DNA from: a virus
Lineage: Duplodnaviria > Caudoviricetes
Reading direction: 5' to 3' (one strand)
DNA: 64,000 bases
Virus record (IMG/VR): IMGVR_UViG_3300046779_001188
Span: 3,492 to 67,491 of that record
A program made the translations under genes and the position numbers. The notes under the pieces were generated by a model that was not told where the DNA came from, did no database searches, and was given only the letters and a program-made list of their open reading frames with translations. This document shows positions 22,477 to 42,965 of this stretch, one piece after another (the first letter of the stretch is position 1; every line of letters begins with the position of its first letter).

Positions 22477-22477
22477 T

Positions 22478-23551: not shown

Positions 23552-23560
23552 GTTTGAATC

Positions 23561-24163: not shown

Positions 24164-24787
24164 CTAGTATGGGGAGGCTCCAGAATAGCTGTTACCCGCC
24201 GTACCAGTCCAAAAACCACTATTGTCGCCGTCAAAGTAAGTCCCTAGGACTCCACCCCACTCCAGCATGACTGAATCTACTAGAAATTTCTCTCCATTAC
24301 TAGCCGATGAGGTGACTATACGGATTGCGCACCAATTAGCGATTGCTGATTTAGTGAATGATCCAGAAAGTCTTACCCATGAGCCTGTAGGAGATAGGGT
24401 TCTAACTCCAATATTTCCAGCAGCAACAGTACTAGTAGATGTCTCTGTTTCGTACTGCAAGACTCGAATATAGTAGTTTGCGTCCACGTTGAGCTCTGGG
24501 AGCTTTACATATGCACTGACATAAGAAAGACCGCTAGCTGGTAGAGGGATTCTAGATTCTGCAGCAGCAAATGATGCCGATGCATTCGTGACCTCTAGAC
24601 ATGAATTTCCCGAATGGCTGTCATAAGTGACTCTTTGAAGAGTGCCACCAGCTCCACCAATCCAGTCTGTAGTGTCTACACTAAAAGAAGGATTTTTTAT
24701 GTAGTTTATGCGGTAGCCCAGTTGTTTAGCTGACGCGGGGTTCTTTAGAGAACTAGCTGAAGAAAGTAATCCAACACTGATTGGCAT
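24164..24787 (-). CDS. Carbohydrate-binding-module-like virion protein (207 aa)
   Basis: NYIKNPSF...W start of a CBM4/9-like beta-sandwich, SAYVK, WVRLSGSF, and C-terminal VMLE.G...TYFDG. Confidence 0.65.
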   Translation of the reverse strand: MPISVGLLSSASSLKNPASAKQLGYRINYIKNPSFSVDTTDWIGGAGGTLQRVTYDSHSGNSCLEVTNASASFAAAESRIPLPASGLSYVSAYVKLPELNVDANYYIRVLQYETETSTSTVAAGNIGVRTLSPTGSWVRLSGSFTKSAIANWCAIRIVTSSASNGEKFLVDSVMLEWGGVLGTYFDGDNSGFWTGTAGNSYSGASPY

Positions 24788-24788
24788 T

Positions 24789-25247
24789 TTAGCTCAGCGC
24801 CAAATCTCCAGCAAGAATCCATTCGTCCGTACCGATTTTCACGCATGTGGCGATTGAATTCTGAGTGCGTAGCTTGTTAGTAGGAGTAGAAAGTAATACC
24901 ACTCCTGTATCTCCTACAACAGTTACCTGACCAACACCGTATTGGAGTATGTCAATTTTTTGACCTATTGAAAATGCAACTGTAGCTTCAGTTGGGATAG
25001 TTACGGTGAAAGCAGATGCATTGCTACACTTTAGGATTTTTCCAGCATCAGTTAGTTCCAAAGTAAAGCTAGCTGATTTAGCTACAACTGGCTGAGCAGT
25101 AGACCAATCACCCTGCGGACCAGTAACGCCTTGTGGTCCAGTAGGTCCTGTTACTGATGGACCTGTAGGACCAAGTGGTCCAGTTGCACCTACAGCGATG
25201 GGTTCCCACTGTGTAGTTGATGTGTTATAGCGTTTGATAATAGGCAT
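24789..25247 (-). CDS. Short collagen-like adaptor protein (152 aa)
   Basis: About 8 G-X-T triplets plus a C-terminal domain ending EWILAGDL, paralogous to that of 41094-42965. Confidence 0.75.
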   Translation of the reverse strand: MPIIKRYNTSTTQWEPIAVGATGPLGPTGPSVTGPTGPQGVTGPQGDWSTAQPVVAKSASFTLELTDAGKILKCSNASAFTVTIPTEATVAFSIGQKIDILQYGVGQVTVVGDTGVVLLSTPTNKLRTQNSIATCVKIGTDEWILAGDLALS

Positions 25248-25262
25248 CTATATCTCCTAGTC

Positions 25263-26843
25263 CTAGAGAACCGCTTGAGTAAACAAGGCTCGGTTTGAGT
25301 TAGATAGGGAAGCAGCAGTGATGCTTGATGGTAGATCTGTCTGAGCTGACACTGCAGCAGTGATTCTAGGAGAGAGAGCCAAAATAGCGTTCACGGGTGT
25401 GGAGGAGAAGTGAGAGTTACCAACAATAGTTGGAAGAGAGGCAGTGCTAACTACCAATACAGCGTAGGCATATAGAGTGCCTTTAGTCTTAGTCCAAGAT
25501 GATGTTAGTGCCAACTCATAGGAAGTGTTGGCAGTAGAGAATGTAGCAGTATCACTGGCTGTGATTGCAACTCTAGTCAGGTCACCAGTTAGCTCATCGA
25601 CAGAGTAAACTCCAAACTTTACAAGTGTAGGAGTTGCTCCAGCTGCAGTACCAGATGCCATTGAAAGTTTTGTGATTGTTTCTGTCTTCTGAGCTCTACG
25701 GTATGTAAGAAGAATTGTTCCAGAAGTACCATATGCAACACCAGATAGTGGAGCATTTCTACTGATGCTTGCTTCGCCACTTGTCAAAATATCTGTTGCA
25801 CTTAGCTTCAAATCTAGATCTGTAACCTGAGCTGTAGAGATTGTAATCTCATCAGCAGCCCCATCACCATGTGTTGCAGCGTGCTCTAATACAGCAGAAT
25901 CAACTGTTGTATCTACCCAAAGTAGAGTTGTGTCTGATGGAGGCACTGCTCCAGAAGAAATACCTTGTGCTCCTGTTGGACCCGTTGGTCCTGTATCTCC
26001 CTGTGGACCAGTTGGACCAGTAGGACCAGGTACGGTGGAGTCTGGACCAGTTGGACCAGTAGGACCACCTGGAGTACCAGCAGGACCAGTAGGTCCTGTA
26101 GCACCGTCTTGACCACCAATTCCTTGAGCACCCGTTGGGCCAGTGGCACCAGTCGCACCAGTAACGCCAATAGGACCAACAAGAGCCCATTCTTGGTTTA
26201 GATCAGACCATGCATAAATAAACTCTTGCCCAATGACATAAGCATCACCGATATTTCCGATAGGACTATCAGCAAGAAGAAGATTTAGAGTCGCGTATGT
26301 TCCCAAAACACGAAGGCTTGAACCTGCAGGACCAGTTGGGCCAGTAGGACCGAATGGACCAGTAGGACCAAGTGGTCCAGTCGGACCAGTAGGGGCTACT
26401 GAAGCAATAGTGTTGAATCCTGCTCCAGTATAAAAATTTACATCTTCGGTAGTGCTGTCAATCCAAATATCTCCGACAGATGGATATCCTGGCTGATTTG
26501 CAGCATAAATGATGTTTGCACGACCAGCTTGTTCATAGACGACAGTGCATTGGAAGGTAGCAGTAGCTGTTGCTGCTTTTACATATACCTGATCCCCGAC
26601 GTTTACTGGGAATCTAAAAGTTTCAAAGGCTTGTCCAACAGAAATTACTAAATCACTAACGATGTATGCGCGGGCAGATTCCACGCCTAGAGCTTCTATA
26701 GGCTCAACATATATGGTTACTGATGTATCTACTCCACCTTTGTTGGTGGCAATAACAGACGCTACACCCACCACATCTGCTGTTCCAAGTAGAACGGCAA
26801 CGTTGGCTACAGGAGAGGCTACTCCTAGTCTCTTTGCTGGCAT
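25263..26843 (-). CDS. Collagen-like fibre protein (526 aa)
   Basis: GPT repeats; N-terminal domain paralogous to 28504-30696; globular C-terminal domain. Confidence 0.85.
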
Positions 26844-26881
26844 TAGTTTCTCCTGAGTGGGCTAGTTAGGGGTTCCATAGA

Positions 26882-26887
26882 ATTATA
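26882..26887 (-). promoter_or_regulatory. Putative -10 box
   Basis: TATAAT on the - strand in the gap upstream of 26843; no clear -35. Confidence 0.45.
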
Positions 26888-26903
26888 CCTTTACTTGAGC
26901 TAT

Positions 26904-28475
26904 CTAACTACCAAAAATGGTGAAAACACGCTGCGAAGCGTTAGGTACATAGGCCATTCTCGGTGCACCACCCCACAAGCTAGTTGTTGAGGTGTAATCA
27001 TCGTCCATATTAGTTGAATATAAACTTGGGAGGCTTTCGTTGACCATATAACTAACTACCTGCGATGGAGCCCAGTCTGGATGCATCTGAAGGAGTAAAG
27101 CTGCCATCCCAGCGATTTGAGGGTTTGCCATAGAGGTCCCGCTGAGAAGAGCCTGTTTATACGAGACATTATGGAAATACTGGTAGTCAAAATTATTTAC
27201 ATTTGTTTGGCTCATGGCACTCATAATTTGAGATCCAGCAGCGTATATGTTTATACCTGGTCCAGCATTGCTATACCCAGCTTTCCTATCAGTACCACCC
27301 TGAGTCAGAGAGCTAACAGCTCCAACATAGAAAGCATCAATATTTTGTGAGCTAGGGCTAGAACCTCTATGATAGTAAAAAGTACCAAAGTCAGTAAGGA
27401 TGTAGTTGTTGTAGTCATTGCCAGAAGCATTGTCTACTTTTATTGATTCGTTTCCAGCGGCATTACAGACCACAATTCCAGCATCCACTAACTGGGCTAT
27501 ATCTGCATCAACTGATGGAACTCTAAATGGGTAGAGGTATCCAAACTCTGATATTTGCTGACCAGTATGGCCTTTTGCTGGATCTAAAGTTGAACCTGTC
27601 CATGAAATTCCTCTATATGATCCACCATTGATGTTATACAAAGTCGCAAACTCATCTTCGGAAAATGCAAAAACTTCTAAATCTGAACGATAGATAATTC
27701 CATAGGACCAACTATTGATAACAACAGTAGGGTGACCATTTGTTTTATTATTGTGCCAGCCCAAAAGAACATCGAAGGCCGTAGACACATCAAAACCCTC
27801 GTTTGGATCTGATGGTCCTCTTAGACCCTCTAGTTTGATAGAAAAGATTTGAGCATTTTTTGCCCAACCAAATGTTTTACCTGCAACAATCCCAGCAACA
27901 TGTGTTCCGTGTCCATCATAGTCTGTATAAAATCCTGTTGGCATTGTTCCAGCAATACCACTTTCGGCATACCAGTCAATTTGATTCACTCTGCTAGCTA
28001 GCGGGTTTTCTAGAGATTGAAATTCTGGGTGGTCCGCTTGAATACCACTGTCAAGAATAACAACATCAACATTAGTTCCGTCTAGAACGTAGTCATATGT
28101 TCCACCTGGATCATCAGTTGATGTTCCATAAATATTATTTGTTTTGATATGACGAAGTAGTCCCCAGTTAGCCTTAGGACCGATTTGAACGGTGTCTTTG
28201 CTAAATGTTGCAGTTTGAAAAGCCTTTTTGTATACCTTGAAATTATCTACAGTCTGTACTGCCTCTACTCGAGGATCTTGAGCTAAGAAAAATGCCTCGG
28301 CGTCGGATAAATAGTAGACAGTATTGCGCTGGTTATTTGGTCTTTCATTAGCAACTTCAACGACTCTATCTGGGATAGTTTCGGGGGTTGGCTCTGAAGA
28401 TAAAAGGTCATCCCATACGGAATCGGTGGTTGCCAAATCCGCTGTAGTTACCGTGTATTCCTTATAGTCACTCAT
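26904..28475 (-). CDS. Subtilisin-like S8 serine peptidase (523 aa)
   Basis: Catalytic triad and oxyanion motifs VVILDSG, DGHGTHVAG, AAGNE and SGTSMANP; N-terminal pro-region. Confidence 0.93.
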   Translation of the reverse strand: MSDYKEYTVTTADLATTDSVWDDLLSSEPTPETIPDRVVEVANERPNNQRNTVYYLSDAEAFFLAQDPRVEAVQTVDNFKVYKKAFQTATFSKDTVQIGPKANWGLLRHIKTNNIYGTSTDDPGGTYDYVLDGTNVDVVILDSGIQADHPEFQSLENPLASRVNQIDWYAESGIAGTMPTGFYTDYDGHGTHVAGIVAGKTFGWAKNAQIFSIKLEGLRGPSDPNEGFDVSTAFDVLLGWHNNKTNGHPTVVINSWSYGIIYRSDLEVFAFSEDEFATLYNINGGSYRGISWTGSTLDPAKGHTGQQISEFGYLYPFRVPSVDADIAQLVDAGIVVCNAAGNESIKVDNASGNDYNNYILTDFGTFYYHRGSSPSSQNIDAFYVGAVSSLTQGGTDRKAGYSNAGPGINIYAAGSQIMSAMSQTNVNNFDYQYFHNVSYKQALLSGTSMANPQIAGMAALLLQMHPDWAPSQVVSYMVNESLPSLYSTNMDDDYTSTTSLWGGAPRMAYVPNASQRVFTIFGS

Positions 28476-28503
28476 CTATCTAAAACCTGTCTCTCGTTAG
28501 TTG

Positions 28504-30696
28504 TTAGATAGCGGAAATATCTTTGATAGTTATGGTTCCAGTCATCGCTGGGTGGTCAGAACATACATACTTGTACTCCCCAGAAGCGCTAAATGGAATC
28601 TGCCAATACAAAGTTCCAGTTGACTTACCCTGAGCTGCTGAACCAGTAGATATTGTTCCATCATTTGCAACGTGTACTAAACCTGTGTTGAAGTTTACTC
28701 CAGCTGTAGTTTGAATACGGAACGGGTGTCCAGTAACACTGAGGTCAAACGCAAGGGTTGTTGCATTTATACCGTAAATAATTGGATTATCAACATCACC
28801 ATAGTGGCTAGTAAAACGGTATGACGCTGTTCCATTATTGGTGACGCTCAAGCGTGCAATAGCTGAATAAGCAACATCCGCAACTGATATACCAGCAGTG
28901 GTTACTTCAATGAGTGCGTTGAAAAGAGTTGTACCAGCTTCACCAGTTGCACCTGTTGGACCTGTAGGTCCCGCAACGGTACTTGCAGCACCTGTCGCAC
29001 CAGTAGCACCTGTAGCTCCAGTTGGTCCAGTAATACCAGTCAAACCTGTGGCACCTGTAGGACCAGTAGGACCAGTTGGTCCTCCTGAAGGTCCAGTAGC
29101 ACCTGTAGGTCCAGTCGGACCAGCGCCAGTACCTTCAATAGTTACCCAGCTAGATCCATTGTTGTAGTGCAACTGAGAACCTAATGCAGCATCAGTCACA
29201 TAGGCAATGGCTCCCTCGCTAGCAGTAAGAGTCCCGAGTTCCGCCGTGGTGACGGTCAACAATCTGATTGGAGCATTTGCAATAACTTCACTCTCTGCAT
29301 CGAGAGTAATAGTTGTAGGAGAAGTAATTGTGTAAGTACCAGTTTCGCTGGTAGGTCCAATTAGTCGAGCAGTCTCTACACCACCAACATACAAAGTTTG
29401 AGTCGAAGCATTGTAGGTAATACCATCGTTGGTTTTACCACCGAGGTTTCCAGTCATGTCTTCGTATAGACCAACATATGTTGTTGGGTCAGTAGTCTGT
29501 ACTACAGCTACGGAACCAGTGCCAGGAATACCTTGAGGACCCTGAGGACCAGTTGGACCTGTTGGTCCGCCAGATGGACCAGTAGGTCCAGTCTCGCCCT
29601 GAGGACCAGTAGGTCCACCAGATGGGCCTGTAGGACCCTCTGGACCAGTAGGACCAGTAATGCTTGCACCAGTCGGTCCAGTAGGACCTGTTGGTCCTGG
29701 AACAAGAGAAGGGTCACCTTGTGGACCTGTCGCACCAAGTGCACCTGCTGCACCTGTTGGACCAGTAGGTCCAGCTACTGTTGACGCGGCACCTGTTGGT
29801 CCTGTAGCACCTGTAGGTCCAGTCGGTCCAGAGATTGGACCAATGTTTTGCCACTCATCGCCAGCGGTCCAAAAATATACATCACCATCAGCTAGAACTA
29901 AATATGCATCTTGAAAAGTATTACCTGTGCTTGGAAGGCTTGCAAAATCAGCAACAGAGCCAAGCATATTCACAGCGATTGCTTGAGGTCCAGCTGGGCC
30001 AGTAGCACCAGTCGGGCCAGCAGGTCCATCTTGACCACCAATACCAACTGGACCAGTAGGGCCTGTTACACCCTGAGCACCTGTAGGACCAGTAGGTCCA
30101 CCTGAAGGGCCAGTTGGGCCTGTAGCACCAGCGGCTCCAGTTGCTCCTGTCGGACCAGATGTAACACCAGTTCCTACAATTTCCCAGCCAGCTTCGGTCT
30201 TCTGCTCTAAAGCACCATTACCTGAATTTAGCTCGGTATTGAAGCGTACATACCCAACTTCAGCTGATGATCGACGTTCTGCAGTAATACCTTTATCTAC
30301 ATAGATTGTGTTGTAAACACCACGAATCTCTTTGTTAGTCAAGGTTTGAACAATATTTTCTGGAAGAGCAGCGTCTTCCTGAGCAATACCGCTAACACTA
30401 AATGATGTAGTTGATACGCTTGAACGAACGTATAGCGTGTCACCCTCATTTACTGCAAATCGGAAAGTCTCAAAAGACTGACCTACAGCAATTTCCAAGT
30501 TGTAGCAAATGTATGCAAAATTCTCTTGGATTACAGCGTTGTATGGCACGACCCAGATGCTAACTTTAGTTGCTGGTACAGCAACTACCGCCTTGTTGGC
30601 GACAACAACAGACACCAAATATGGGTCTGAAAATGTTGCCAGAACGGTATCAGCGTTACCTGATGGATTCTGAATACCAAGTCTCTGAATCGGCAT
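28504..30696 (-). CDS. Collagen-like fibre protein with C-terminal cupredoxin-like domain (730 aa)
   Basis: GPT/GAT repeats; C-terminal DNP...GHPF...LYWQIP...[11 protein letters not shown]. Confidence 0.85.
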
Positions 30697-30708
30697 ACGT
30701 TGTCTCTC

Positions 30709-33700: not shown

Positions 33701-36513
33701 CCAACACCAGTACCGTGGTCTGTGATGTCCAAGGTGATACCAGAAGCAGCGTTCTCTGCTGAAGTTGCTAGACGTAGGTAGTCTCGGTTTACACCTACAA
33801 CGAAGTAGTGGGTGTTGTTTACAAGTCCACCAATATCAGTAGCAGCATCACCTTGAGAGTAAGTAACTTCTGTACCAGTCACAAAACCGTGAGATGGTAG
33901 GAAGAATGTATTCAATTCAAGGTCAATAGTTGTACGAGGGTTGAAAGTCTTTGTAATTACTGGAACGTTTCCTTGAGCTTCCACAGTGAATGTGTCAGGG
34001 CTAGGAACTGTAGTAATTGTGTAAATACCATCTGGAGTCTTAGATAGAGAACGCAATGTGTGACGACCAACACCAAGAGGGCTGTTTGTGATGTCAATCG
34101 CTGTGCCAGCATCTGCATTTTCAGGGGTAAGAGCAAGCTTGATGTTATCTCCATCAATGAAGATTACATAGTAAGGAGTAGCAGTTGTTAGACCATTTAC
34201 TGCAGTCTGACCCTTTGTATCGTACTCAACAAGCTCTCCACTAAGGAATCCATGGCCAGGAATAGTGATGATGTTGTTTGTATAGTCCAAAGATGTGATA
34301 AATAGAGACTGAGTTCCTGTACCAGCGGCAGTGATGTTTGCTGGAGCAGTAAGAGTCTTATTTGTAGAAAGCTTTACAATGCTGTTGTCAACCTTGATGA
34401 TGTAGTAAGTAGCATCATTAGTTAGACCAGTAATTGTTGTACCACCACCGTTTGAGTAACGAACAGCCTGACCATTTACAAGACCGTGGTTAGGAATGTA
34501 GAGAGTGTCTTCAGCTGTGTTTACGGTCAAGAAGATAAAGCTGTGACCAGTTCCTGTACCAGCAGATGTAAAGTCGATTGAAGTTGGAGCGTTCAGAGAT
34601 GACTTTAGACGGATCTGGTTAGCATTGAGAACTTCAGATACATAATATGTAGCACCATCGATAAGAGGCAGAATAGCTGTACCGCCACCTGCATCGTATT
34701 GAAGTGGTTGGTCAACCAAGAAACCGTGGTTGCTAATTGTCAAAGTGTTTGTAGAGACGTTCACAACAACACGGCTTGCAGTAGCAGAGGTTGATGTTTC
34801 TCTAGAAGATGGAGAAATCAAGTTGATGTTGGTAAATGATGGTGCAGGAGTTGTACTCAATCGATAAGAGAATGCATCCACTGTGTTGACATAGTAGACA
34901 CCACCATTCGTGATTCCCACTGGAGGAGTTCCATTGAAGAAGAGAGTTACAGCTTCACCATTTGAAAGGGTATGTGCTGCTGGGCTGTGGATGACGTCGT
35001 TGAGTACGTCAAAGTTGATAGGTAGGAATGCGTGATATGAAGATCCAGCTGCTTCAATCTCAATTGCATTTGTTCCATTTTCTGCATCTTGCGCAGTTGG
35101 GTGAATGCTGTTACCAGTTGTAAAGCTAGATACTAGGGCTACAGCAACAGAACCTTCACCTGTGTTATATGCTCCAACGTTTCCAATAGCAGAACCATTG
35201 AATGTTAGAACTCCATCAAAACGTCCTGTAGATGTTGCAACGTTAGTAGCTGTAGCAGCGATAAATGAACCACCACCACCACCTGAGTGGTTAGCTGTTG
35301 TAGAGCGAGCTCCACCACCACCAGAGTAGCCACCGCCACCACCAGATTGACCTACGTTTTGACCGTCTGACTGACCGCCTCCACCAAAGCCACCATAACC
35401 ACCAGTGCGGCTATTAGTACCTTGAGTTAGACCGTCGAGGAATGATCCTCCACCTAGATTTTGCTGACCTGTAAGTCCACCATTAGCACCACGGGAGAAG
35501 AAACCACCACCAGCCGCTGAGTAACCAAATGGAGTGGTTGTACGACCACCGAAACCAGCAGTTCCACCAGCTTGTTGGTTGTTAGTTGAAGTTCCACCAA
35601 GCTTAGTAAGAACAGCATCGCGTCCTGCACCAGAGTTTGATTCAGCAGAACCACCACCAGCAACAAATAGAGGCTCGGAACCAGTCTTACGAACAACGAA
35701 TGTTCCACCACCAGAACCACCCCATACAGTACCTGAAGCAGGAGCAGCACCTCGCTGACCTACAGCGATAGTAATTACCTCACCTTTAGTTAGGGCAAGT
35801 CGTCCTTGGACAATAGCACCACGCCCAGCGGTTCCTGTACCAGTACCGTCATAGCCAGCGGCACCGCGAACGTCAAATGAGTAAATACCAGAAACTGGAA
35901 CAGTCCAGTCTTGGTAACCATCAAATGTTCCACGGCTTAGATATGTTTCATCCCAAGTAGTGTTGTATGCGTTGCGCATTTCTGCTTGGTTAGGTCCAAC
36001 GCGTCCAGTCTTACCGCATGTAGTAAAGGTGTGACTTGTAAATGCATAAAGAGCCTGAGAACCAGCAAACTCAGAGATTGATACGTTCTTGAGGAAGTAT
36101 GTCTCACCGCTAGTCAAACCAGTTAGTGGTGTTCCAGATGTTAGGTACTTGACTGCTTGATTAGTTGGAGTTGAAGAGTCAATGTTTAGCTTGTTTGCGT
36201 ACACAACTGGTGTGTTGAATTTGATAGAGCCAGGTGTGCTATCAGTTAGATCAATCTCTGAACCGCCAGATTCAGTACTAAACTTTAGCTTTTTAGGCTC
36301 GGTTGTAGTTACATAAACAAGACCATCTTCTGTAAACCCTGCTACATCTCCAACACCAGAAGTGTAGAGAAACGCTGTACCTGGAACAAAAGCAGATGGG
36401 ATAACGCTTGCACCACTGTTTTTATAGTAGATGAAGTTATCGTCAGTATTTACATTTACTCGTGAAAAGGAGTGAGTACCTGCGGCACCCGCAGCCGTTA
36501 CGTCAATTGGCAT
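30709..36513 (-). CDS. Very large repeat-rich structural/fibre protein with ALK/LTK-like Gly-rich domain (1934 aa)
   Basis: At least 8 (H)G[FL]..G..V.Y...GL.....YYV modules; FTTCG..G..GP...WTVP...GAAG...VGQ.G Gly-rich domain. Confidence 0.85.
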   Translation of the reverse strand: MPIDVTAAGAAGTHSFSRVNVNTDDNFIYYKNSGASVIPSAFVPGTAFLYTSGVGDVAGFTEDGLVYVTTTEPKKLKFSTESGGSEIDLTDSTPGSIKFNTPVVYANKLNIDSSTPTNQAVKYLTSGTPLTGLTSGETYFLKNVSISEFAGSQALYAFTSHTFTTCGKTGRVGPNQAEMRNAYNTTWDETYLSRGTFDGYQDWTVPVSGIYSFDVRGAAGYDGTGTGTAGRGAIVQGRLALTKGEVITIAVGQRGAAPASGTVWGGSGGGTFVVRKTGSEPLFVAGGGSAESNSGAGRDAVLTKLGGTSTNNQQAGGTAGFGGRTTTPFGYSAAGGGFFSRGANGGLTGQQNLGGGSFLDGLTQGTNSRTGGYGGFGGGGQSDGQNVGQSGGGGGYSGGGGARSTTANHSGGGGGSFIAATATNVATSTGRFDGVLTFNGSAIGNVGAYNTGEGSVAVALVSSFTTGNSIHPTAQDAENGTNAIEIEAAGSSYHAFLPINFDVLNDVIHSPAAHTLSNGEAVTLFFNGTPPVGITNGGVYYVNTVDAFSYRLSTTPAPSFTNINLISPSSRETSTSATASRVVVNVSTNTLTISNHGFLVDQPLQYDAGGGTAILPLIDGATYYVSEVLNANQIRLKSSLNAPTSIDFTSAGTGTGHSFIFLTVNTAEDTLYIPNHGLVNGQAVRYSNGGGTTITGLTNDATYYIIKVDNSIVKLSTNKTLTAPANITAAGTGTQSLFITSLDYTNNIITIPGHGFLSGELVEYDTKGQTAVNGLTTATPYYVIFIDGDNIKLALTPENADAGTAIDITNSPLGVGRHTLRSLSKTPDGIYTITTVPSPDTFTVEAQGNVPVITKTFNPRTTIDLELNTFFLPSHGFVTGTEVTYSQGDAATDIGGLVNNTHYFVVGVNRDYLRLATSAENAASGITLDITDHGTGVGHQLVSDQINGNVTGSGSVSVGAGSVLINGVGTSFSKILKVGDRFRLFPPNTTNQITFADTDVSTVTNRVTKAHTFTTGAVIKFASNGGVAPSPLVDGYYYYVRAVSSTEVTLHGTYNDALNNLQAIDFSTQGTGTGFTFTQTTPVGPIIRRITAIGSDTQITVDRPYASAYNSVSYSYPTFVYVRPQGYSLHRPFDGGVEMSVGAKTSLGQIIRQTRKYFRYQSGKGLQTSCGINFQPSIDIESMRQFSSTTIEAKTRRPHGLVSGLFVTISQAEDSYGDQSTVYNGDFQVTVVDLTTFRFVAREPIVQNRAYGFPQFFVREWSNGAVRSGMFDFQNGMFYEFNGSEIFACRRSSTQQLAGTASALQGSELIFGTNTSFTAQLDVGDFIVMRGQSYRITQIDSDTRMSVRPEYKGASGAEKEFNPQTAVNTSTDTITLVGHGFSDRLPVVYNSIDGEPIGGLINGRTYYVDLASIDTGNKNNAFKLVADPDSELNVNLSSTGTTTVHSFTPAKSGIVITKTVDTKVPQSQWSVDVCDGSGPTGYLLDTSRIQMSYIDYSWYGAGKIRFGFKTTDGQVQYVHEFVHNNNLYESYFRSGNLPARYEVVTYENPTYIPYLFHWGTSVIMDGRFDDDNAYLFTGSSQTLNVPGTTAKSFASSGIILSNDLITVQSHGFNTGDLLQFQSIAPSGFPGTNSLNPATAVVGSNTYANLANNQLYKAFVNSVNLIHLTPANATITIGANVARSGSTITVTTATPHGLTTGMYAGIYGLTATNLTNGAYTVTRVSDTVFTYTVAGTQTVAAIDQPGAAISEVINFTSQGNTQYTYFLYPNGSLNNTSGPNYQPLLSIRLSPSVSEGLTGKLGDRDVINRMQLRLKEVGVSTTQLVDVKLLINPRLNNLNFVGVDSPSLTQLVEHTSADTVSGGVQIYNFRASGGAGGVENTTTVDISTLFELSNSILGGDSIFPDGPDILTIAVSRLTGSTTLAAAKLSWSEAQA

Positions 36514-36531
36514 TTATAAGTCTCCTAGTCC

Positions 36532-39207
36532 TTAGAGCTTTGTAATCGTGATTTGACCGTTGCCTGAGCTAGCGGTTTCTGAGCTTGACTGGTTTGTACC
36601 ACCGTTGTATGAACCAGCGCCTGCACCGTTTGCTGACCACCATGAGCCAGGTCCACCTGTGTAGCCACCGCCACCACCAGCGCCGTTGGTGCCTCCACCA
36701 CCGCCGCCTCCACCGAAGCCACCTACAGCTTGGTTTCCGCCGCCGTAAGCACCGTTTACGAATGAAGTTCCATACCAAGAACCGCCACCGTTACCGTAGA
36801 AGCCACCGCCTCCACCGAAGGTAGAACCTGAACCACCGTTACCTGGAGATGGTGATCCCCAGTTGTTAGAGCTTCGAGAATATTGTCCAGTGGTTGCGTC
36901 AGCATAGCCATACCAACCTGGTGAACCACCGCCACCACCACCAGCGACTAGAAGAGGACCTCCAGTTGGGCTAGTAGCGACGAAGGAACCACCACCACCA
37001 CCGCCGTCGTAGTAGTTTCCATATGCTGCCTGACCAACAACTAGGTAAAGCTTGTCACCTAGACCAAGGCTAAAGTCACCTTGCATACGAGCACCGTAAC
37101 CACCACGAGTACCCCAACCGTATGACCATCCACCAGCAGCACCATATGCTTCAATGCGATATGTAGCTGTTTCAGGAACAGTCCACTCAATCTTTCCTTG
37201 AGTACCTGGCATGTTGATGTAGGTAGTACCCCATGAAGGGTTACCAGCACCTGAACGTGCAGCGTTGATGTCTGGACCACCAGTACCGCCATATCCACCT
37301 GGAGTAAATGTCACAGATGTGAATGAGTACAAGCTTGGTGGTTGGTCAAATTGATAGTTGTGAGTTTGGAACGCAGAGATTCCAAATGAGTCTGTAGCAG
37401 TAATGATTACTGTACGACCAGGTACTGCAATGTTTTCTAGAGGTGTACCTGAAACCACACCAGTAGATGTGTTCAAAGTAAGACCAGTAGGAAGAGTTCC
37501 ACTTGTGACAGCATAAGTAATAGGAGCTGTCATACCAATCGTTGTGATTGTTGTTGGAGTCATCGCATAGCGAGAGTAACCACTACGACTAATGGTCTGA
37601 GGTGAAACCTCACCAACAGTCTGGTTGAGTGTAAAGTTGTGGGTATCTAGAACTTGCGCAACGAAGTAGAAGTTCTTGATTTGATCAGCTGATACAACGC
37701 TAAATGCTCCAGCTTCAGGCGCTGTGTACTTGAGCATGTCGAATTGCGCATAACCGTGATCTTTGACGTGGAATATGTTCTTGTCTAGCGAGATACCGAT
37801 TTGCTTGAAGTTCTGAGTACCAGTTCCACCAGAGATTGAGGTGATGGTGGCCCCACCAACAGTTGGCTTTAGAGTAAATGCATAGTTAGTACCGCCAGTT
37901 GAGAAGAATGAATCTACCCAGTAGGTGGTATTTGCAGTCAAACCATTAGCTGCTGTACCAGTTGTGGTGTAGTAAACCATTGTGCTGAAATACCAATCAA
38001 GTGGTAGACCATCAGCAGAAGATACGTTCACCAAGGAACCACTAAAAGAAGTTACGTTTCCGCTAGTTCCACCAGTGTTTGATCCATCAAAAGTCTTTGG
38101 AGCATCTTTGATAATAGTAACTACTTGCTCTGAAAGAGGATTTACGTTGTTACCAGCAAAAGTACGAGCTTGGTTTGCAAGCTGGAATGTTCCAGTCATT
38201 GTGGTGACAATCGTGATGATTTCACCATCAGGTGTGTCACTTACTTGGAATGTTGAGCTAGAAGTTCCTAGGGCATCATTGGTTCGTAGGAAAACAACTC
38301 CTCGTGGGTTAGTTGCAAAATACCCGCCACCAGCGACAACATCATAATACAGAGGAGTGCCAAGAGGCTTACCATTGAAATTCTCGGTACCGTGAGCAAC
38401 GGTAATGGTGTTATTAGTGATGTTGTTTGTGTTCATGTTGACTGTGCTAGTTACACCAGCTACAGTCGCAGAGTTAGACCAGTCAATGTTGATCTGAGAA
38501 AGAGTGTTAGAACCATCAAAAGTCTGAGCAGTAGCTGAGTTTGATGCGTCAAAAGACTTAGTTGTGTTGTTGTTAGCAGGGAACTCTTGGGAGATAGTTG
38601 AGTTCAAGTTCAAGAAGTAGAACGGGGTATCTACATAGAAACCGTGGGTAGAGCCAGTTTTTACAGTAAGAGTTGAAATTGACTCGCCGTCAGTGACAAT
38701 ACCTGCCTCATCGGCAATACGAAGCTGGGAGCCTTGGAAGAACTCACCAGTGATAATAGATGAGTAAAGGTCCTCAATCGAGTTTGTACCGACTTGAACG
38801 TCTCTACATAGATATGTAAAAGTAGTGGTGTTTGGGATTGAGTTGATGATGTATGAACCATCAGCTGTAATTGACTTGCTACCAGTTACGTTGATTGGGA
38901 TACCAGCAGCAAGACCGTGAGGTAGACCTGTCTTTACTGTAATTTCACGGGTACCATCATTTGTCGTAATGGACAGAATGTTAGGAATAGTTGTATCACC
39001 GCTCTTTGAGAAGAACGATGGCGTGTTGTTGATGAGCTCAACTGTTTCCCACTTAGTTGGCTGGAGACCGTATTCAAAGTCGGTATCGATCAGGTTTTCA
39101 GGCTGGGATACGCGAAGTTTGGTTACTGGATCAATAAACTCTTTTGGAAAACTGATTTGACCACCAGAGGAGCTCGAACCGCTGCTACCACCAAGAAAAC
39201 CAGGCAT
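36532..39207 (-). CDS. Structural/fibre protein with Ig-like (He_PIG-type) and Gly-rich domains (891 aa)
   Basis: N-terminal KLRVSQPENLIDTDFEYG; ITYAVTSGTLPTGLTLNTSTGVVSGTP; C-terminal EWTVPETATYRIEAYGAAGG...polyGly. Confidence 0.85.
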   Translation of the reverse strand: MPGFLGGSSGSSSSGGQISFPKEFIDPVTKLRVSQPENLIDTDFEYGLQPTKWETVELINNTPSFFSKSGDTTIPNILSITTNDGTREITVKTGLPHGLAAGIPINVTGSKSITADGSYIINSIPNTTTFTYLCRDVQVGTNSIEDLYSSIITGEFFQGSQLRIADEAGIVTDGESISTLTVKTGSTHGFYVDTPFYFLNLNSTISQEFPANNNTTKSFDASNSATAQTFDGSNTLSQINIDWSNSATVAGVTSTVNMNTNNITNNTITVAHGTENFNGKPLGTPLYYDVVAGGGYFATNPRGVVFLRTNDALGTSSSTFQVSDTPDGEIITIVTTMTGTFQLANQARTFAGNNVNPLSEQVVTIIKDAPKTFDGSNTGGTSGNVTSFSGSLVNVSSADGLPLDWYFSTMVYYTTTGTAANGLTANTTYWVDSFFSTGGTNYAFTLKPTVGGATITSISGGTGTQNFKQIGISLDKNIFHVKDHGYAQFDMLKYTAPEAGAFSVVSADQIKNFYFVAQVLDTHNFTLNQTVGEVSPQTISRSGYSRYAMTPTTITTIGMTAPITYAVTSGTLPTGLTLNTSTGVVSGTPLENIAVPGRTVIITATDSFGISAFQTHNYQFDQPPSLYSFTSVTFTPGGYGGTGGPDINAARSGAGNPSWGTTYINMPGTQGKIEWTVPETATYRIEAYGAAGGWSYGWGTRGGYGARMQGDFSLGLGDKLYLVVGQAAYGNYYDGGGGGGSFVATSPTGGPLLVAGGGGGGSPGWYGYADATTGQYSRSSNNWGSPSPGNGGSGSTFGGGGGFYGNGGGSWYGTSFVNGAYGGGNQAVGGFGGGGGGGGTNGAGGGGGYTGGPGSWWSANGAGAGSYNGGTNQSSSETASSGNGQITITKL

Positions 39208-39301
39208 TAGTTAGTACCTCTCATACCGCACACACGAATTATTAGTAGAATACCATTCGATGTGTTAGTTGATTCTGAAAAAGTGCTCGTGTTTTGCATC
39301 T

Positions 39302-39952
39302 TTATGAGCCTAACCACCAGCTTGTAGACACTGCTAGAGAACCAGCTGCACCAGTGGCACCCTGAGGGCCAGTAGATCCACCTTGAGTTTGGATAAACAC
39401 ACCGTTATAGAACACATATGTAATTGCAGTGTTTGTATCAAACCATGCATCACCGTTGACTGCAGAAAGTAGATCTGGCTGAGTAGGGCTAGCTGTGAAC
39501 TTACCGACTGGACCAGTAGGACCAGTAGGACCCGGAACTTCTGATTGAGCACCTGTTGAACCTGTAGGTCCAGTAACACCGCGAGGACCTGTCGGACCTT
39601 GAGGACCAGTTACGTTTGAATCAGCACCAGTAGGACCTGTAAAACCACGAAGACCTTGCTCACCTTGAAGACCTTGAGGTCCTGTTGGTCCTTGAGGACC
39701 AGTTGGTCCCTGCGGACCTTGTGGTCCAGCAACGTCAGAAACAGGTCCTGTAGGACCTGCAATACCTTGAACACCAGTTGGACCTTGAGGACCAGTAGCA
39801 CCCGTTGGTCCCTGAATACCTTGCGGACCAGTAGGACCAGTAGGAGTTACGCGCTTGTTTTCCCAAACTGTCCCAGTCCATACCCAGGTTTGACCGCCAG
39901 AAGTGAATTCTTCACCTACGATAACTGGTGTTGGAAAATCAATCGCTGCCAC
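39302..39952 (-). CDS. Collagen-like protein (216 aa, GTG start)
   Basis: MAAIDFP...[10 protein letters not shown]-terminus and a long G-P/A-T/Q run; GAAAGGA RBS. Confidence 0.85.
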
Positions 39953-39982
39953 TGTTTCGCGTCCTTTCTACTCTAACTGTCT

Positions 39983-39988
39983 ATTGTA
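39983..39988 (-). promoter_or_regulatory. Putative -10 box
   Basis: TACAAT on the - strand upstream of 39952. Confidence 0.4.
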
Positions 39989-40000
39989 CGTTGGAATTGA

Positions 40001-40168
40001 TTAGCCAACATATGGTTCTGAAGCTTCAGAATTTTTCAAAGCAACATAGGCTTCAGCCCATATGCTTGCTGATGCAATAGACTCCCATGGACCGCTCTCG
40101 TCGATGACGTTTGTCCCGTGAAGAATTTGAACCATCGGTCCTTCTTCTATAATGATATAAGAAAACAT
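40001..40168 (-). CDS. Small protein missed by the ORF track (55 aa), possible fibre chaperone
   Basis: MFSYIIIEEGPMVQILHGTNVIDESGPWESIASASIWAEAYVALKNSEASEPYVG*; GGAG upstream; fills the gap between 40175 and 39952. Confidence 0.7.
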   Translation of the reverse strand: MFSYIIIEEGPMVQILHGTNVIDESGPWESIASASIWAEAYVALKNSEASEPYVG

Positions 40169-40174
40169 ACTTCT

Positions 40175-41092
40175 TTAGACTCCTGAATATGCGATTTTGC
40201 CGCCGCTGCCCACTGCAACTGCTACTGAAGCATCTAAATAAACTCCATTGATATTGCTAGTTCCGAATCCCGAGGATCTTTGAATCCATGAAACGCCATC
40301 AATGGAAGTGGCAATTTTTCCAGCAGTTCCACCAGCTATATAAGTTTCAGAATTACCAGAAACCGCTCTTACCTGGGAACCACCAAAAGAGGAGGCAGGA
40401 AATGCCTGAGTCCAAGTTGTTCCATTTGGTGACGTTGCAATCTTTCCAGCGTCTCCAACTGCAATAAATTTTGAGCCAGAGTCGTTTGTAGTGATTCCAA
40501 AAATAGTGCTAGTCACAAATGATGAGCTTCTCTGAGTCCACGAAGTTCCGTTGGAAGAGGTAGCTAGTTTTCCGTCATAGCCAACAGCAACGATAGTTGT
40601 TGGGGTGGCCCAAACAGCATTTATAAATGTAGTACCAAAAGATGATAGACGTTGAACCCACTCAATGCCATCGATAGATGTAGCTAGCTTTCCAGAAGCT
40701 CCTACAGCAATCCAAAGCCCTGCAGAAGGGGCGTAAACAATTCCCAAAATTGCACTAGCACCGAATGAAGAAGCAACTAAAGTCCAATTGACTCCATCAG
40801 ATGATCTAGCCATTTTTCCTGCACTACCACCAATAATGTACTGACCATCTCCATACGCTATGGCATATATATTGCTTCCAGAAAACCCAGAAACAGCAGA
40901 AGTCCATGTAATCAAATTTGAACTAGTAGCAATCTTTCCAGAACTACCAACAGCAACGTACTGACTAGATCCATCCGAGGTAATAGCATTGATGTTAGTT
41001 GTCCCAAATGTGGTGTTGACAACCTGAGTCCATACTGTAGCTAAGAACGGAACTGGTAAAGTCGCATGCATTGCATGGGTGGCGATTAGCAT
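40175..41092 (-). CDS. Seven-repeat Asp-box/BNR beta-propeller protein (305 aa)
   Basis: Seven +AVG..GK+ATS repeats, six followed by a (S.DG..W)-type Asp-box. Confidence 0.85.
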   Translation of the reverse strand: MLIATHAMHATLPVPFLATVWTQVVNTTFGTTNINAITSDGSSQYVAVGSSGKIATSSNLITWTSAVSGFSGSNIYAIAYGDGQYIIGGSAGKMARSSDGVNWTLVASSFGASAILGIVYAPSAGLWIAVGASGKLATSIDGIEWVQRLSSFGTTFINAVWATPTTIVAVGYDGKLATSSNGTSWTQRSSSFVTSTIFGITTNDSGSKFIAVGDAGKIATSPNGTTWTQAFPASSFGGSQVRAVSGNSETYIAGGTAGKIATSIDGVSWIQRSSGFGTSNINGVYLDASVAVAVGSGGKIAYSGV

Positions 41093-41093
41093 G

Positions 41094-42965
41094 TTATGCC
41101 TGTAGGTTTCCGCTCAATAGCCAAGAATTTGCACCAAGCTTGATAAGAGACGCAATGGCGTATCGGTTCTTACTTGTGTAGCGAGCACCTTCACTTAGAA
41201 CGCTAACTCCAGCAGCTCCAGTCACAGAGAAAACTCCAGTACCCAGCTGAGTAAGCACAATCTGAGTTCCTGTATCAAATGTGTAGTCATTAGCTCCATC
41301 AAGTGGAACAGTTACAACTGTTGCTGATGAGCTGTTGATTTTCACAATAGAGGCTTTATCGCTAGAACCTAGAGTTACTGATTGTAGGTACTGAGGACCA
41401 ACCAAGTTGAAGATAGCTGGACCTGTTGGGCCAGTTGGACCTGCAACCGTAGAAGCTGGACCTGTTGGGCCAGTAGGTCCTGGAACTGTAGATGCTGCAC
41501 CAGTAGGACCAGTTATGGCTGGTCCAGTTGGACCAGTAGTTCCTGTAGGTCCTGTAGGGCCAACAATCTTTCCAGAGTTCTGCCAGATGGTTCCGTTCCA
41601 TACCCAAAGGTCGCCAGTAGCTGATACGACATATGCGTCGTTGACTTGGTTTCCACTAGCTGGAAGGTTTACATCATTAGCAACAGTTCCCTTGAACTTG
41701 ATTGATGCACCTTGAGGGCCTGTAGGACCTGTTGGTCCTATCTCTCCAGCACCTAATACTAGATTCCAGCTTGAGTAGGTATTACCGTCACCGTTGATCT
41801 TGTCTACAAGAAGAGTAATCGTGGTTCCATTGATAGAACCAATGATTCCTTCCATGTAATCAGCTGGGAAACTAGCACTTGCAAGACGAGAACGAGTTCC
41901 TACTGCAAATGCAGCAACTTTATTTACAATAAAGTTGAGAGTTCCTGAGGCTATCTCTAAATTGCTAGAAGAAGTTACTCCAATAAAACTTTCACCAGTA
42001 GGACCAGTAGGTCCTGTTACTGATGGACCAGTTGCTCCTGTAGCTCCTGTAGGACCAGGAATCGTTGAAGCAGGTCCTGTTGGACCTGTAACACTTGGAC
42101 CTGTTGGTCCTGGAACTGTAGATGCTGCTCCAGTTGGGCCAGTCGCTCCTGTTGCACCACGAAGACCAGCTGCACCATCTGCACCAGTTGGTCCTGTAGG
42201 GCCAGTAGGACCTGTTGAACCTGTAGGTCCACCAGCAGGTCCAGTTACACCCTGAGCACCTGTAGGACCAGTAGGTCCAGTAATAGAAGGACCAGTAGAT
42301 CCAACAGGACCAGTTGGTCCTACGAATCCGCGAACACCAGTCGGTCCTGTAGCACCACGTTCACCCTGAGGACCAGTAGGTCCAGTCACACCATCAGAAC
42401 CAATAGGACCAGTTGCACCAATAGGACCAGTTGCACCAATAGGTCCTCGTTCACCTTCTGGACCAGTTACACCTTGTGCACCAGTAGGTCCTTGAGGCCC
42501 AGTAGGTCCTGTTACATCTAAACCTTTAGACCCAGTTGGGCCAGTATTTCCCTGAGGACCAGTAGGACCTGTTGGACCAGTTGAACCTGTAGGTCCTAAT
42601 TCAGTACTTTGAGGGCCTGTAGCTCCAGTAGGTCCAGTAGGACCTTCGCTACCACTTAGGCTTGAAGCAGTCTCGACCCAGTAGCTGTCGTAGTATGCAT
42701 AAATTTTTCCAGTTGCTGTGTTGAACCAAGTATCACCCTCGGCTGCACCTGATGGAGGAGTATCCGCTGCAAGAAGGAAGGTTCCTTTTGAACCTGTAGG
42801 TCCAGTTACATTAGATGCTTCACCTTGAGGACCAGTCGGTCCAGTAGGACCAACAACTTCTGAAATAACAAGGTCCCAAGAGGTACCGCTCCAAATCCAT
42901 GTTTGGACTCCAGAAGTAAATACATCATTTACTTGAGGGGAGTTAGGAAAATCAATAGCTGCCAT
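41094..42965 (-). CDS. Collagen-like fibre with adaptor-type C-terminal domain (623 aa)
   Basis: MAAIDFP N-terminus, long GPT runs, C-terminal domain ending SWLLSGNL. Confidence 0.85.

What the first reader, a model, noticed from the sequence alone, without database searches (positions are those of the whole stretch)
24164..42965. Twice-repeated adaptor + swappable-tip gene cassette
Seen: two collagen genes end in the same roughly 100-aa domain. 24789-25247 has ...FTVTIP...F.IG..I.I.Q.G.G.V.V.G...S...K+.T..W+LAGDL and 41094-42965 has ...VVTVP...F.TG..I.+.Q.GTG...V.G...AS.+K+...W+LSGNL. Each is followed after exactly one nucleotide (TAA-N-ATG) by an unrelated binding-type gene: a CBM-like sandwich (24164-24787) or a 7-repeat beta-propeller (40175-41092). 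Both tip genes start with a short low-structure leader (MPISVGLLSSASS; MLIATHAMHAT). Inference: the conserved C-terminal domain is a socket that captures the N-terminal peptide of an interchangeable adhesin. This would be conceptually like T-even gp37/gp38 tips but used in parallel.
Basis: partly seen in the sequence, partly recalled or inferred. Interest (0 to 1): 0.72.

Follow-up and report, generated by a model that had tools for sequence, protein, structure and literature searches.

The report
Snap-on tips for phage fibres
Two collagen-like fibre genes of an uncultured freshwater phage end in the same small knob, each is followed by a sugar-binding-type "tip" gene with a conserved leader, and surveys of related phages plus one structure prediction suggest the knob holds the leader, so tips can be exchanged.

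Summary
P0001 (24789-25247, minus strand) and P0002 (41094-42965, minus strand) share a C-terminal domain of about 95 aa (33% identity, E 2e-14). No other ORF in the window carries it. Each is followed after one base by a CBM_4_9 protein or a seven-blade propeller.

The domain belongs to a very large viral family (19,158 representative clusters) with no Pfam or NCBIfam model. Its fold resembles the Pa223 capsid-spike knob and the XD1 domain of T4 gp9, T4 gp10 and CBA120 TSP4.

- **Position and coupling:** in 80 diverse viral loci the domain always sits at the very C-terminus. The next gene is tightly coupled far more often than at other junctions (87% against 45%).
- **Shared leader:** the downstream proteins fall into 34 unrelated families, many with lectin-type domains. 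Many start with a common motif, about M-P-I-L-G-I-I-A-S-S.
- **Co-occurrence:** leader-bearing CBM and propeller genes always follow a knob gene. Leaderless relatives are mostly fused into longer proteins.
- **Predicted complex:** the P0003 leader sits against all three knob copies (ipSAE 0.69, best control 0.00).

It is a new variant of known anchor-branch and gp37/gp38 designs. This scan has made similar plug-and-socket readings on other genomes.

The parts
24789..25247 (-). P0001, a 152-aa mini-fibre: short N-terminal module, nine G-X-Y collagen triplets, then the C-terminal knob
   Evidence: Translation. Pfam Collagen match at residues 20-46, below threshold. PHROG tail-fibre C-terminal matches.
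24792..25100 (-). Knob (CTD) of P0001, residues 50-152: the proposed socket
   Evidence: Model pLDDT 97.4. Fold matches: Pa223 gp52 knob Z 14.7 and TSP4 XD1 Z 9.6. 19,158 related representative clusters. Predicted interface residues 48-52, 97-99, 121-136 and 144-152.
24164..24787 (-). P0003, a 207-aa tip protein with a CBM_4_9-type beta-sandwich
   Evidence: Pfam CBM_4_9 at 32.5 bits, cut-off 25.9. 183 homologues at E<=0.001; the 120 best listed are 207-217 aa.
24713..24787 (-). Leader of P0003 (residues 1-25, MPISVGLLSSASSLKNP...): the proposed plug
   Evidence: Invariant M1, P2, G6, A11, K15, L23 and Y25 in 30 homologues. It is the main predicted contact with the knob trimer. All 29 leader-bearing homologues follow a knob gene.
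41094..42965 (-). P0002, a 623-aa collagen fibre with an N-terminal AIDFP module and two small globular inserts, ending in the knob
   Evidence: Translation. Pfam Collagen E 1.4e-22. PHROG tail-fibre matches.
41097..41420 (-). Knob (CTD) of P0002, residues 516-623
   Evidence: 33% identity over 93 aa to the P0001 knob, E 2.4e-14. PHROG 8780 and 21978 C-terminal matches.
40175..41092 (-). P0004, a 305-aa seven-blade beta-propeller tip protein
   Evidence: Translation. 409 homologues, many carrying PF25852 or PF14870. The propeller is fused inside longer ORFs in 13 other phage loci.
41030..41092 (-). Leader of P0004 (residues 1-21, MLIATHAMHATLPVPFLATVW)
   Evidence: M1, H6, T11 and W21 are invariant down to about 50% overall identity. 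64 of 64 loci with this leader have a knob-ending ORF directly upstream.
24785..24791 (-). Junction TAA-A-ATG between P0001 and P0003
41090..41096 (-). Junction TAA-C-ATG between P0002 and P0004

Best explanation
The window holds two two-part virion fibres. In each, a collagen-like trimer ends in a beta-sandwich knob of about 95 aa. The next gene is translationally coupled and encodes a glycan-binding-type tip: a CBM_4_9 sandwich or a seven-blade propeller. I infer that the tip's conserved N-terminal leader of 20-25 residues docks onto the distal face and three-fold axis of the knob trimer, with one tip per trimer in the model. Shaft and adhesin are thus separate genes joined after translation, and tips can be swapped by recombination at the gene boundary. 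The two knob and leader pairs in this phage differ: the knobs are 33% identical and the leaders follow different motifs. That could keep the two fibres from cross-docking. What is shown: homology, gene order, coupling, leader conservation and co-occurrence. What is inferred: physical docking, stoichiometry, permanence on the virion and glycan binding.
For: The knobs are homologous, and only these two window ORFs carry the domain. The knob folds confidently on its own (pLDDT 97.4). It matches trimeric phage fibre and spike modules well above background: Pa223 gp52 C-terminal knob Z 14.7, KP1 baseplate protein Z 10.2, CBA120 TSP4 residues 78-182 Z 9.6, T4 gp9 Z 8.5 and T4 gp10 Z 8.1, after which scores drop to Z 3.

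In 80 diverse viral loci, all 100 knob ORFs end within 8 aa of the domain. Of 94 with enough downstream sequence, 90 have a co-directional ORF, and 78 of those 90 lie within 5 nt. By crude gene calls this is 87% of junctions against 45% elsewhere (Fisher p 2e-13).

The downstream proteins form 34 unrelated clusters, yet many share the start M-P-I-L-G-I-I-A-S-S. A strict pattern hits 34 of 90 downstream ORFs against 1 of 691 controls. With each cluster left out of training in turn, 9 of 34 clusters score above the control 99th percentile. P0003 is the only window ORF above that threshold.

The tip repertoire is of the binding type: Gly_rich_2, Laminin_G_3, propellers, SPRY and fn3.

The reverse tests agree. 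64 of 64 leader-bearing propellers and 29 of 29 leader-bearing CBMs follow a knob gene. 13 leaderless propellers and 44 of 48 leaderless CBM relatives do not, and most of them sit inside longer ORFs.

The complex prediction of P0001 x3 with P0003 gave ipSAE 0.69 (runs 0.70, 0.69, 0.57) against 0.00 for the best of three controls. The tool's mark was reached by 58 of 80 solved complexes and 2 of 110 mismatched pairs. The runs agree in at least 90% of contacts and the partner's pLDDT is at least 89. The interface is P0003 residues 1-25, 190-192 and 203-207 against all three knob copies.
Against: There is no experimental evidence of binding or of virion incorporation. The complex was folded with my own alignments and an assumed 3:1 stoichiometry, so the calibration holds only roughly. 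The second pair (P0002/P0004) was not folded, and its leader does not fit the common motif (score -8.7). The CBM and propeller co-occurrence counts come largely from related freshwater phages and partly reflect inherited synteny. Two recurrent downstream families, of 83-86 aa and 106-110 aa, lack the motif. The fold match is to XD1, which the authors of PMC8825819 treat as a spacer. It is not to the XD2 and XD3 modules known to dock partners. The domain also occurs in tandem arrays of up to 22 copies, and in 35 of 152 top hits other sequence follows the last copy. It is therefore not always a terminal socket.
Confidence: 0.62

Rival explanations
1. The downstream proteins bind the knob only transiently, as tail-fibre assembly chaperones or caps of the Tfa or gp38(T4) type. 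They help the trimer fold and then leave, or protect the tip. They are not the adhesin.
For: Fibre chaperones are classically encoded directly downstream of the fibre gene and bind its C-terminal end. Alteromonas phage fibre chaperones have been proposed as transient caps (PMC10579305). 2 of 38 downstream representatives hit a PHROG 'tail fiber assembly' family. The small 83-86 aa and 106-110 aa downstream families have no recognisable binding domain. A predicted interface would look the same for a chaperone.
Against: P0003 is a CBM_4_9 sandwich. The P0004 propeller and the P0003-type CBM occur as covalent parts of longer ORFs in other phages, among them fibre-like ones. Across loci the downstream domains are lectin-like (Laminin_G_3, Gly_rich_2, SPRY, propellers), and these are not typical chaperone folds. 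The knob folds confidently as an isolated monomer.
Confidence: 0.17
2. The knob is simply the distal head of the fibre. It acts as a trimerisation and registration nucleus for the collagen helix, possibly binding receptor itself as proposed for the Pa223 gp52 knob. The downstream genes are independent virion proteins or enzymes that sit next to it through ordinary operon packing. Their leaders attach them elsewhere.
For: The best fold match is the terminal knob of a trimeric spike with no known partner (Z 14.7; 10.1101/2025.06.11.659172). Collagen helices need a trimerising end domain, which is established knowledge for C1q-type proteins and for BclA. Tandem arrays of the domain suggest a generic bead. 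One-base gaps occur between unrelated genes in this window.
Against: This does not explain why coupling is much tighter after knob genes than at other junctions. It does not explain why unrelated downstream proteins share an N-terminal motif that is almost absent from control ORFs. It does not explain why the leaders occur only behind knob genes. Nor does it explain the complex prediction against its controls.
Confidence: 0.14
3. Fibre and tip are made as one polypeptide by programmed frameshifting or stop-codon bypass at the tight junction.
For: The junctions are extremely short.
Against: In homologous pairs the gap takes values of -4, -1, 0, +1, +2, +3, +6 and +12. The relative reading frame is therefore not conserved. 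Every tip ORF begins with its own start codon and a conserved Met-leader. No knob-CBM fusion appeared among the 7 longer homologues found, which is weak evidence.
Confidence: 0.02

Closest known systems
Anchor-branch receptor-binding systems: T4 gp10 with gp11/gp12, CBA120 TSP4/TSP2, G7C gp66/gp63.1, Klebsiella KP32/KP34 RBP1/RBP2 (PMC8825819, PMC6872550, PMC13352976)
   Same: A small beta domain on one trimeric fibre or spike is proposed to dock a short conserved N-terminal peptide of a separately encoded, adjacent and exchangeable receptor binder. Several binders are used in parallel. The knob shares a fold with the XD1 module of gp10 and TSP4 (Z 8-10).
   Different: There the docking modules are XD2 and XD3 jelly-rolls near the N-terminus of RBP1, which gives side branches. 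Here the domain is XD1-like, sits at the extreme C-terminus and extends the fibre end-on. The peptide motifs are unrelated (MALxxLV there; MPILGIIASS or MLIATHAMHA here). There is no sequence homology.
T2/S16-type gp37 fibre with gp38 tip adhesin
   Same: The adhesin gene lies directly downstream of the fibre gene. One adhesin is proposed to cap the distal end of a trimer, as in the 3:1 model. 9 of 38 downstream representatives carry a glycine-rich Pfam domain (Gly_rich_2).
   Different: No sequence relation to gp37 or gp38 was found. The shaft is collagen-like. The cassette occurs twice in one phage and in thousands of lineages, with many unrelated tip folds.
Pseudomonas phage Pa223 capsid spike gp52 C-terminal knob (PDB 9ny6; 10.1101/2025.06.11.659172)
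   Same: It is the best structural match (Z 14.7, 98 aa aligned, rmsd 2.2 A). It is the terminal knob of a homotrimeric fibre-like protein, proposed to act in host recognition.
   Different: Sequence identity is 11%. gp52 has a beta-helix shaft and sits on the capsid. No partner protein is described for it.
Tail-fibre assembly chaperones and transient caps (Mu/P2/lambda Tfa; Alteromonas phages A5 and V22, PMC10579305)
   Same: The gene lies immediately downstream of the fibre gene, and its product binds the fibre's distal end.
   Different: P0003 and P0004 are lectin-type folds. In other phages these folds occur as covalent parts of longer ORFs, among them fibre-like ones. Neither has a PHROG chaperone match.

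Membership tests
XD1 / T4 gp9 middle-domain-like beta-sandwich (fold class) | A beta-sandwich of about 100 residues that superposes on TSP4 78-182, gp10 45-155 and gp9 63-165 | tested here: met
   Z 9.6, 8.1 and 8.5 over 89-94 aligned residues. Unrelated chains score Z 3 or less.
T4 gp10-like XD2/XD3 branching domain | A beta-jelly-roll of about 60 residues matching XD2 or XD3 | tested here: inconclusive
   All alignments to TSP4 and gp10 fall on the XD1 range. No XD2 or XD3 range was reported.
T4 gp10-like XD2/XD3 branching domain | Located near the N-terminus of the anchored RBP, giving a side branch | tested here: not met
   In all 100 knob ORFs of the 80-locus survey the domain lies within 8 aa of the stop codon.
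Anchor-branch docking (works-like test) | The partner carries a conserved N-terminal docking peptide and is encoded adjacently | tested here: met
   Leaders are conserved. The motif is shared across unrelated partners. Adjacency and coupling are shown.
Anchor-branch docking (works-like test) | Physical interaction between the domain and the peptide | not testable with these tools
   Only a prediction is available: ipSAE 0.69 against 0.00 for the best control. The tool's mark was reached by 58 of 80 solved complexes and 2 of 110 mismatched pairs.
gp37/gp38-type tip adhesin | Sequence homology to gp38 or gp37 | tested here: inconclusive
   The Pfam, NCBIfam and PHROG scans of P0001-P0004 gave no gp37 or gp38 match.
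CBM_4_9 (PF02018) | Score above the Pfam gathering threshold | tested here: met
   P0003 scores 32.5 bits against a cut-off of 25.9, over residues 28-147.
Collagen triple-helix repeat (PF01391) | G-X-Y repeats above the gathering threshold | tested here: met
   P0002 scores 79.6 bits against 27.2. P0001 has only nine triplets and scores 15.6 bits, below threshold.
Tail-fibre assembly chaperone (Tfa) | Match to chaperone families | tested here: inconclusive
   P0003 and P0004 match no PHROG family. 2 of 38 downstream representatives from other loci hit phrog_863, 'tail fiber assembly'.

The most novel reading that the evidence does not exclude
The knob and leader pair is a widespread, so far unnamed snap-on standard for phage fibres. 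A C-terminal XD1-like knob, present in about 19,000 representative protein clusters, accepts N-terminal leader plugs of a few specificity classes, such as the PILGIIASS type and the MLIxxH type. One virion could then carry several orthogonal tips. Unrelated lectin, propeller and glycine-rich adhesins could be exchanged between phages of Actinobacteria, Proteobacteria and other hosts by recombination at a gene boundary.
Probability: 0.35. Interest if true: 0.8.

Novelty: new variant of a known kind. Interest (0 to 1): 0.66.

Why it matters
If the docking is real, it names and explains a very abundant viral domain that no Pfam or NCBIfam model covers. It gives a simple rule for finding the true receptor-binding proteins of uncultured phages: look for the gene behind a knob-ending fibre that starts with the leader. 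It also extends the anchor-branch principle, so far worked out mainly in enterobacterial phages, to end-on joints on collagen-like fibres of freshwater actinobacterial phages and many others. It would also offer a natural, compact peptide-and-domain pair for modular fibre studies in laboratory phage systems.

Tried and rejected
- **P0003 fold:** the single-sequence fold was too poor to search (pLDDT 40.7).
- **PDB sequence and profile searches:** for the knob, P0003 and P0004 these gave nothing except a likely chance match to 5wuc (E 0.046).
- **Family models for the knob:** Pfam and NCBIfam have none. The protein atlas lists only unnamed viral clusters.
- **TNF fold:** the Pa223 authors describe their knob as a TNF fold, but neither fold search of my model listed any TNF or C1q chain.
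- **The search for related loci with alignment A1:** it failed because no stretch was conserved enough. I repeated it with A2.
- **First propeller context script:** it picked start codons too far upstream and undercounted knob neighbours. This was corrected.
- **Covalent knob-CBM fusions:** among the 7 longer homologues found, none carried the knob. This is weak evidence.
- **Frameshift or fusion reading:** rejected because the gap, and therefore the relative frame, varies between relatives.
- **One-base spacing as a signal:** rejected as a signal in itself.
- **The search of earlier findings with a consensus-like knob (P0129):** it returned nothing.
Full report
**Context.** The window is a siphovirus-like phage genome. 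The plus strand carries a tape measure protein, Dit-like and Tal-like proteins and replication genes. The minus strand carries a block from 20974 to 49465. It holds a halogenase, a glycosyltransferase, a methyltransferase-like gene and at least nine fibre-type genes, seven of them with collagen repeats. The nearest named relative is Actinomycetia phage DSL-LC01 from lake water, which keeps the same order of collagen fibre and propeller.

**Observation.** P0001 (152 aa) and P0002 (623 aa) both contain G-X-Y collagen and end in a related domain. With the collagen removed, the C-termini align at 33% identity over 93 aa (blastp E 2.4e-14). No other window ORF matches. The stop and start codons read TAA-A-ATG and TAA-C-ATG. 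P0003 passes the Pfam CBM_4_9 threshold. P0004 is a seven-blade propeller by its repeats and by the families recorded for its homologues. The one-base gap is not diagnostic. The halogenase and glycosyltransferase genes are also one base apart, and relatives show gaps from -1 to +12.

**What the shared domain is.**
- A whole-library HMMER search found 19,158 representative clusters at E<=0.001 and 6,023 at E<=1e-10.
- Pfam, NCBIfam and PDB sequence searches have no model for it. The protein atlas lists only unnamed viral clusters. There the domain is combined with collagen, Mtd_N or DUF2793 N-terminal parts.
- PHROGs place it at the C-terminus of 'minor tail protein', 'tail fiber' and 'virion structural' families. 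It occurs in Gordonia, Brevundimonas, Achromobacter and Sinorhizobium phages.
- Folded with a 28-row alignment, it gives a confident beta-sandwich (pLDDT 97.4).
- Two independent structure searches agree on a small, well-separated set of matches:
  - the C-terminal knob of the trimeric Pa223 capsid spike gp52 (Z 14.7, 98 aa, 2.2 A);
  - a Klebsiella KP1 baseplate protein (Z 10.2);
  - CBA120 TSP4 residues 78-182 (Z 9.6);
  - T4 gp9 residues 63-165 (Z 8.5);
  - T4 gp10 residues 45-155 (Z 8.1);
  - the C-terminal part of an Acinetobacter tailspike (Z 8.3);
  - CpaA and StcE modules.
  
  After these, scores drop to Z 3.
- The TSP4 and gp10 ranges are the XD1 module. They are not the XD2 and XD3 jelly-rolls that dock partners, and the authors call XD1's role unclear (PMC8825819).
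- Among the 152 best representatives, 123 carry two or more copies (up to 22). 117 end with a copy at the C-terminus. All 29 single-copy proteins are C-terminal.

**Survey seeded from the domain.** I fetched 80 diverse viral loci with a consensus-like alignment.
- They hold 100 ORFs with the domain, and in every one the last copy lies within 8 aa of the stop. Twenty loci carry more than one such ORF.
- Of 94 ORFs with enough downstream sequence, 90 have a co-directional ORF starting within -25 to +200 nt. Of those 90, 78 lie within 5 nt, and 59 overlap as ATGA or TAATG.
- With a crude common gene caller, 87% of junctions after knob genes are this tight, against 45% of 411 other junctions in the same loci (odds ratio 8.2, p 2e-13).
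- None of the downstream proteins carries the knob, and they fall into 34 sequence-unrelated clusters.
- Their Pfam content is of the binding type: Gly_rich_2 in 9 of 38 representatives, Laminin_G_3 in 6, then propellers, SPRY, fn3 and a trans-sialidase lectin domain.
- Despite unrelated bodies, many begin alike: MPILGTIASS, MPILGVIASS, MPTIIGIIASS, MTSALGIIASG, MNNIGILASAGG, MQILGGVGAAG.
  - A strict pattern hits 34 of 90 downstream ORFs against 1 of 691 control ORFs.
  - With a position matrix trained with each cluster left out in turn, 9 of 34 clusters exceed the 99th percentile of 519 control N-termini, where 0.3 is expected. 15 of 34 exceed the 95th percentile.
  - P0003 (MPISVGLLSS) is the only window ORF above the 99th percentile. 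P0004 does not fit this matrix.

**Reverse tests from the tips.** P0004 homologues keep the leader M-L-I-[AS]-x-H-A-x-x-[AS]-T-L...W almost unchanged down to about 50% overall identity. The table shows whether a knob-ending ORF lies directly upstream.

| Tip family | Loci checked | Knob gene directly upstream | With leader | Leaderless relatives |
|---|---|---|---|---|
| Propeller | 79 | 66, gap -4 to +6 | 64 standard leader, 2 variant | 13: no knob gene; propeller inside a longer ORF with 82 to over 990 residues upstream |
| CBM | 77 | 33 | 29 of 29 (gap -1 to +12) | 44 of 48 have no knob gene; most (38 of 48) have 80-770 residues before the CBM domain |

- No propeller locus has the leader without a knob gene upstream.
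- In DSL-LC01 the fibre ends in the knob (E 4e-33). The frame directly after its stop is open and encodes the leader variant, so the annotated start 54 nt downstream is probably too late.
- Many of these loci are related phages. The counts therefore partly reflect inherited synteny. The independent signal is the domain-seeded survey above.

**Predicted complex.** I folded three copies of P0001 with one P0003, each with its own alignment. The ipSAE scores were 0.70, 0.69 and 0.57 (median 0.69), against 0.00 for all three controls. The tool's mark was reached by 58 of 80 solved complexes and 2 of 110 mismatched pairs. The runs agree in at least 90% of contacts, and the partner's pLDDT is at least 89.
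- The interface is P0003 residues 1-17, 19-20 and 22-25, plus 190-192 and 203-207.
- These contact all three knob copies at residues 48-52, 97-99, 121-136 and 144-152. That range includes the family's conserved C-terminal W-x-L-x-G-D-L tail.
It remains a prediction, made with my own alignments and an assumed stoichiometry.

**Comparison with known systems.**
- The logic matches anchor-branch receptor-binding systems, in which a T4gp10-like domain of RBP1 docks a short conserved N-terminal peptide of RBP2 (PMC6872550). That pairing has now been validated experimentally in KP32, K11 and KP34 (PMC13352976).
- It also matches the gp37/gp38 fibre-plus-tip design.
- It differs in four ways: the fold module (XD1-like rather than XD2 or XD3), the position (extreme C-terminus, end-on rather than a side branch), the peptide motif, and the collagen shafts.
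- The main rival is a transient chaperone cap (PMC10579305). It cannot be excluded in silico. The lectin-type folds of the tips, and their covalent fusion into longer proteins in other phages, argue against it.
- Whether these fibres sit on the tail or the head is not determined. The best structural match is a capsid spike, and P0003 weakly matches a GTA head-spike domain.

**Verdict.** I class it as a new variant of a known kind. Earlier notes of this scan describe comparable plug-and-socket fibre readings in other genomes. I treated them as leads only and did not test them.

Noticed in passing
window 39302-39952, 41094-42965 and 42979-43680 (minus strand): Three collagen genes start with the same N-terminal module ([MV]-[AP]-A-I-D-F-P...G.QTW). 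All three hit the first 60-75 positions of PHROG 3449, 'tail collar protein'. This is probably a shared proximal attachment module, separate from the distal knob.
   Followed up: no
L001 (Actinomycetia phage DSL-LC01, OQ999401) 10929-10985, minus strand: The annotated propeller gene ('photosynthesis system II assembly factor') starts 54 nt after the fibre stop. The frame is open from the base after that stop and encodes a leader variant (VVISALHAIITS) that is conserved in relatives. The true start is probably a GTG a few bases after the stop.
   Followed up: partly
proteins P0005 (3206 aa), P0006 (2401 aa) and P0007 (1303 aa): The knob domain occurs as 22, 16 and 9 tandem copies in single giant proteins. 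In 35 of 152 top hits, further sequence (often collagen) follows the last copy. The domain is therefore also used as an internal bead.
   Followed up: partly
loci L025, L046, L047, L053, L057, L061, L069, L086, L089, L092, L093, L095 and L096: A recurrent 83-86 aa ORF (MSRLALTPTNVP...LRAGDLYY) always overlaps the stop of a knob gene by 4 nt. A 106-110 aa family (MPTYKVLAQSAPSA...) always overlaps by 1 nt. Neither has the common leader, and their roles are unknown.
   Followed up: no
protein P0395 (599 aa): A P0003 homologue with the same leader and CBM carries an extra C-terminal PQQ-like propeller (PF13360). The tips themselves grow by adding domains at the C-terminus.
   Followed up: no
loci L233, L245, L246 and L256: A different protein type has about 430 aa beginning [MV]A[KR]YG...YG, followed by a CBM related to P0003. 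It follows a knob gene at a gap of 12-13 nt in four loci. In ten others it has no knob gene upstream.
   Followed up: no
window 20974-24136 (minus strand): A flavin-halogenase-like gene, a glycosyltransferase and a methyltransferase-like gene lie directly downstream of the fibre block on the same strand. The halogenase and glycosyltransferase genes are separated by one base, like the fibre and tip pairs.
   Followed up: no
L002 3294-3725 and L003 3291-3881 (Gordonia phages Powerball and RiverRaider): In cultured Gordonia phages the knob-ending 'minor tail protein' is followed by an overlapping hypothetical gene. Its N-terminus (MVLPNTRYR, VIPGVRHR) differs from both leader types seen here. It may be a third plug class.
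   Followed up: partly
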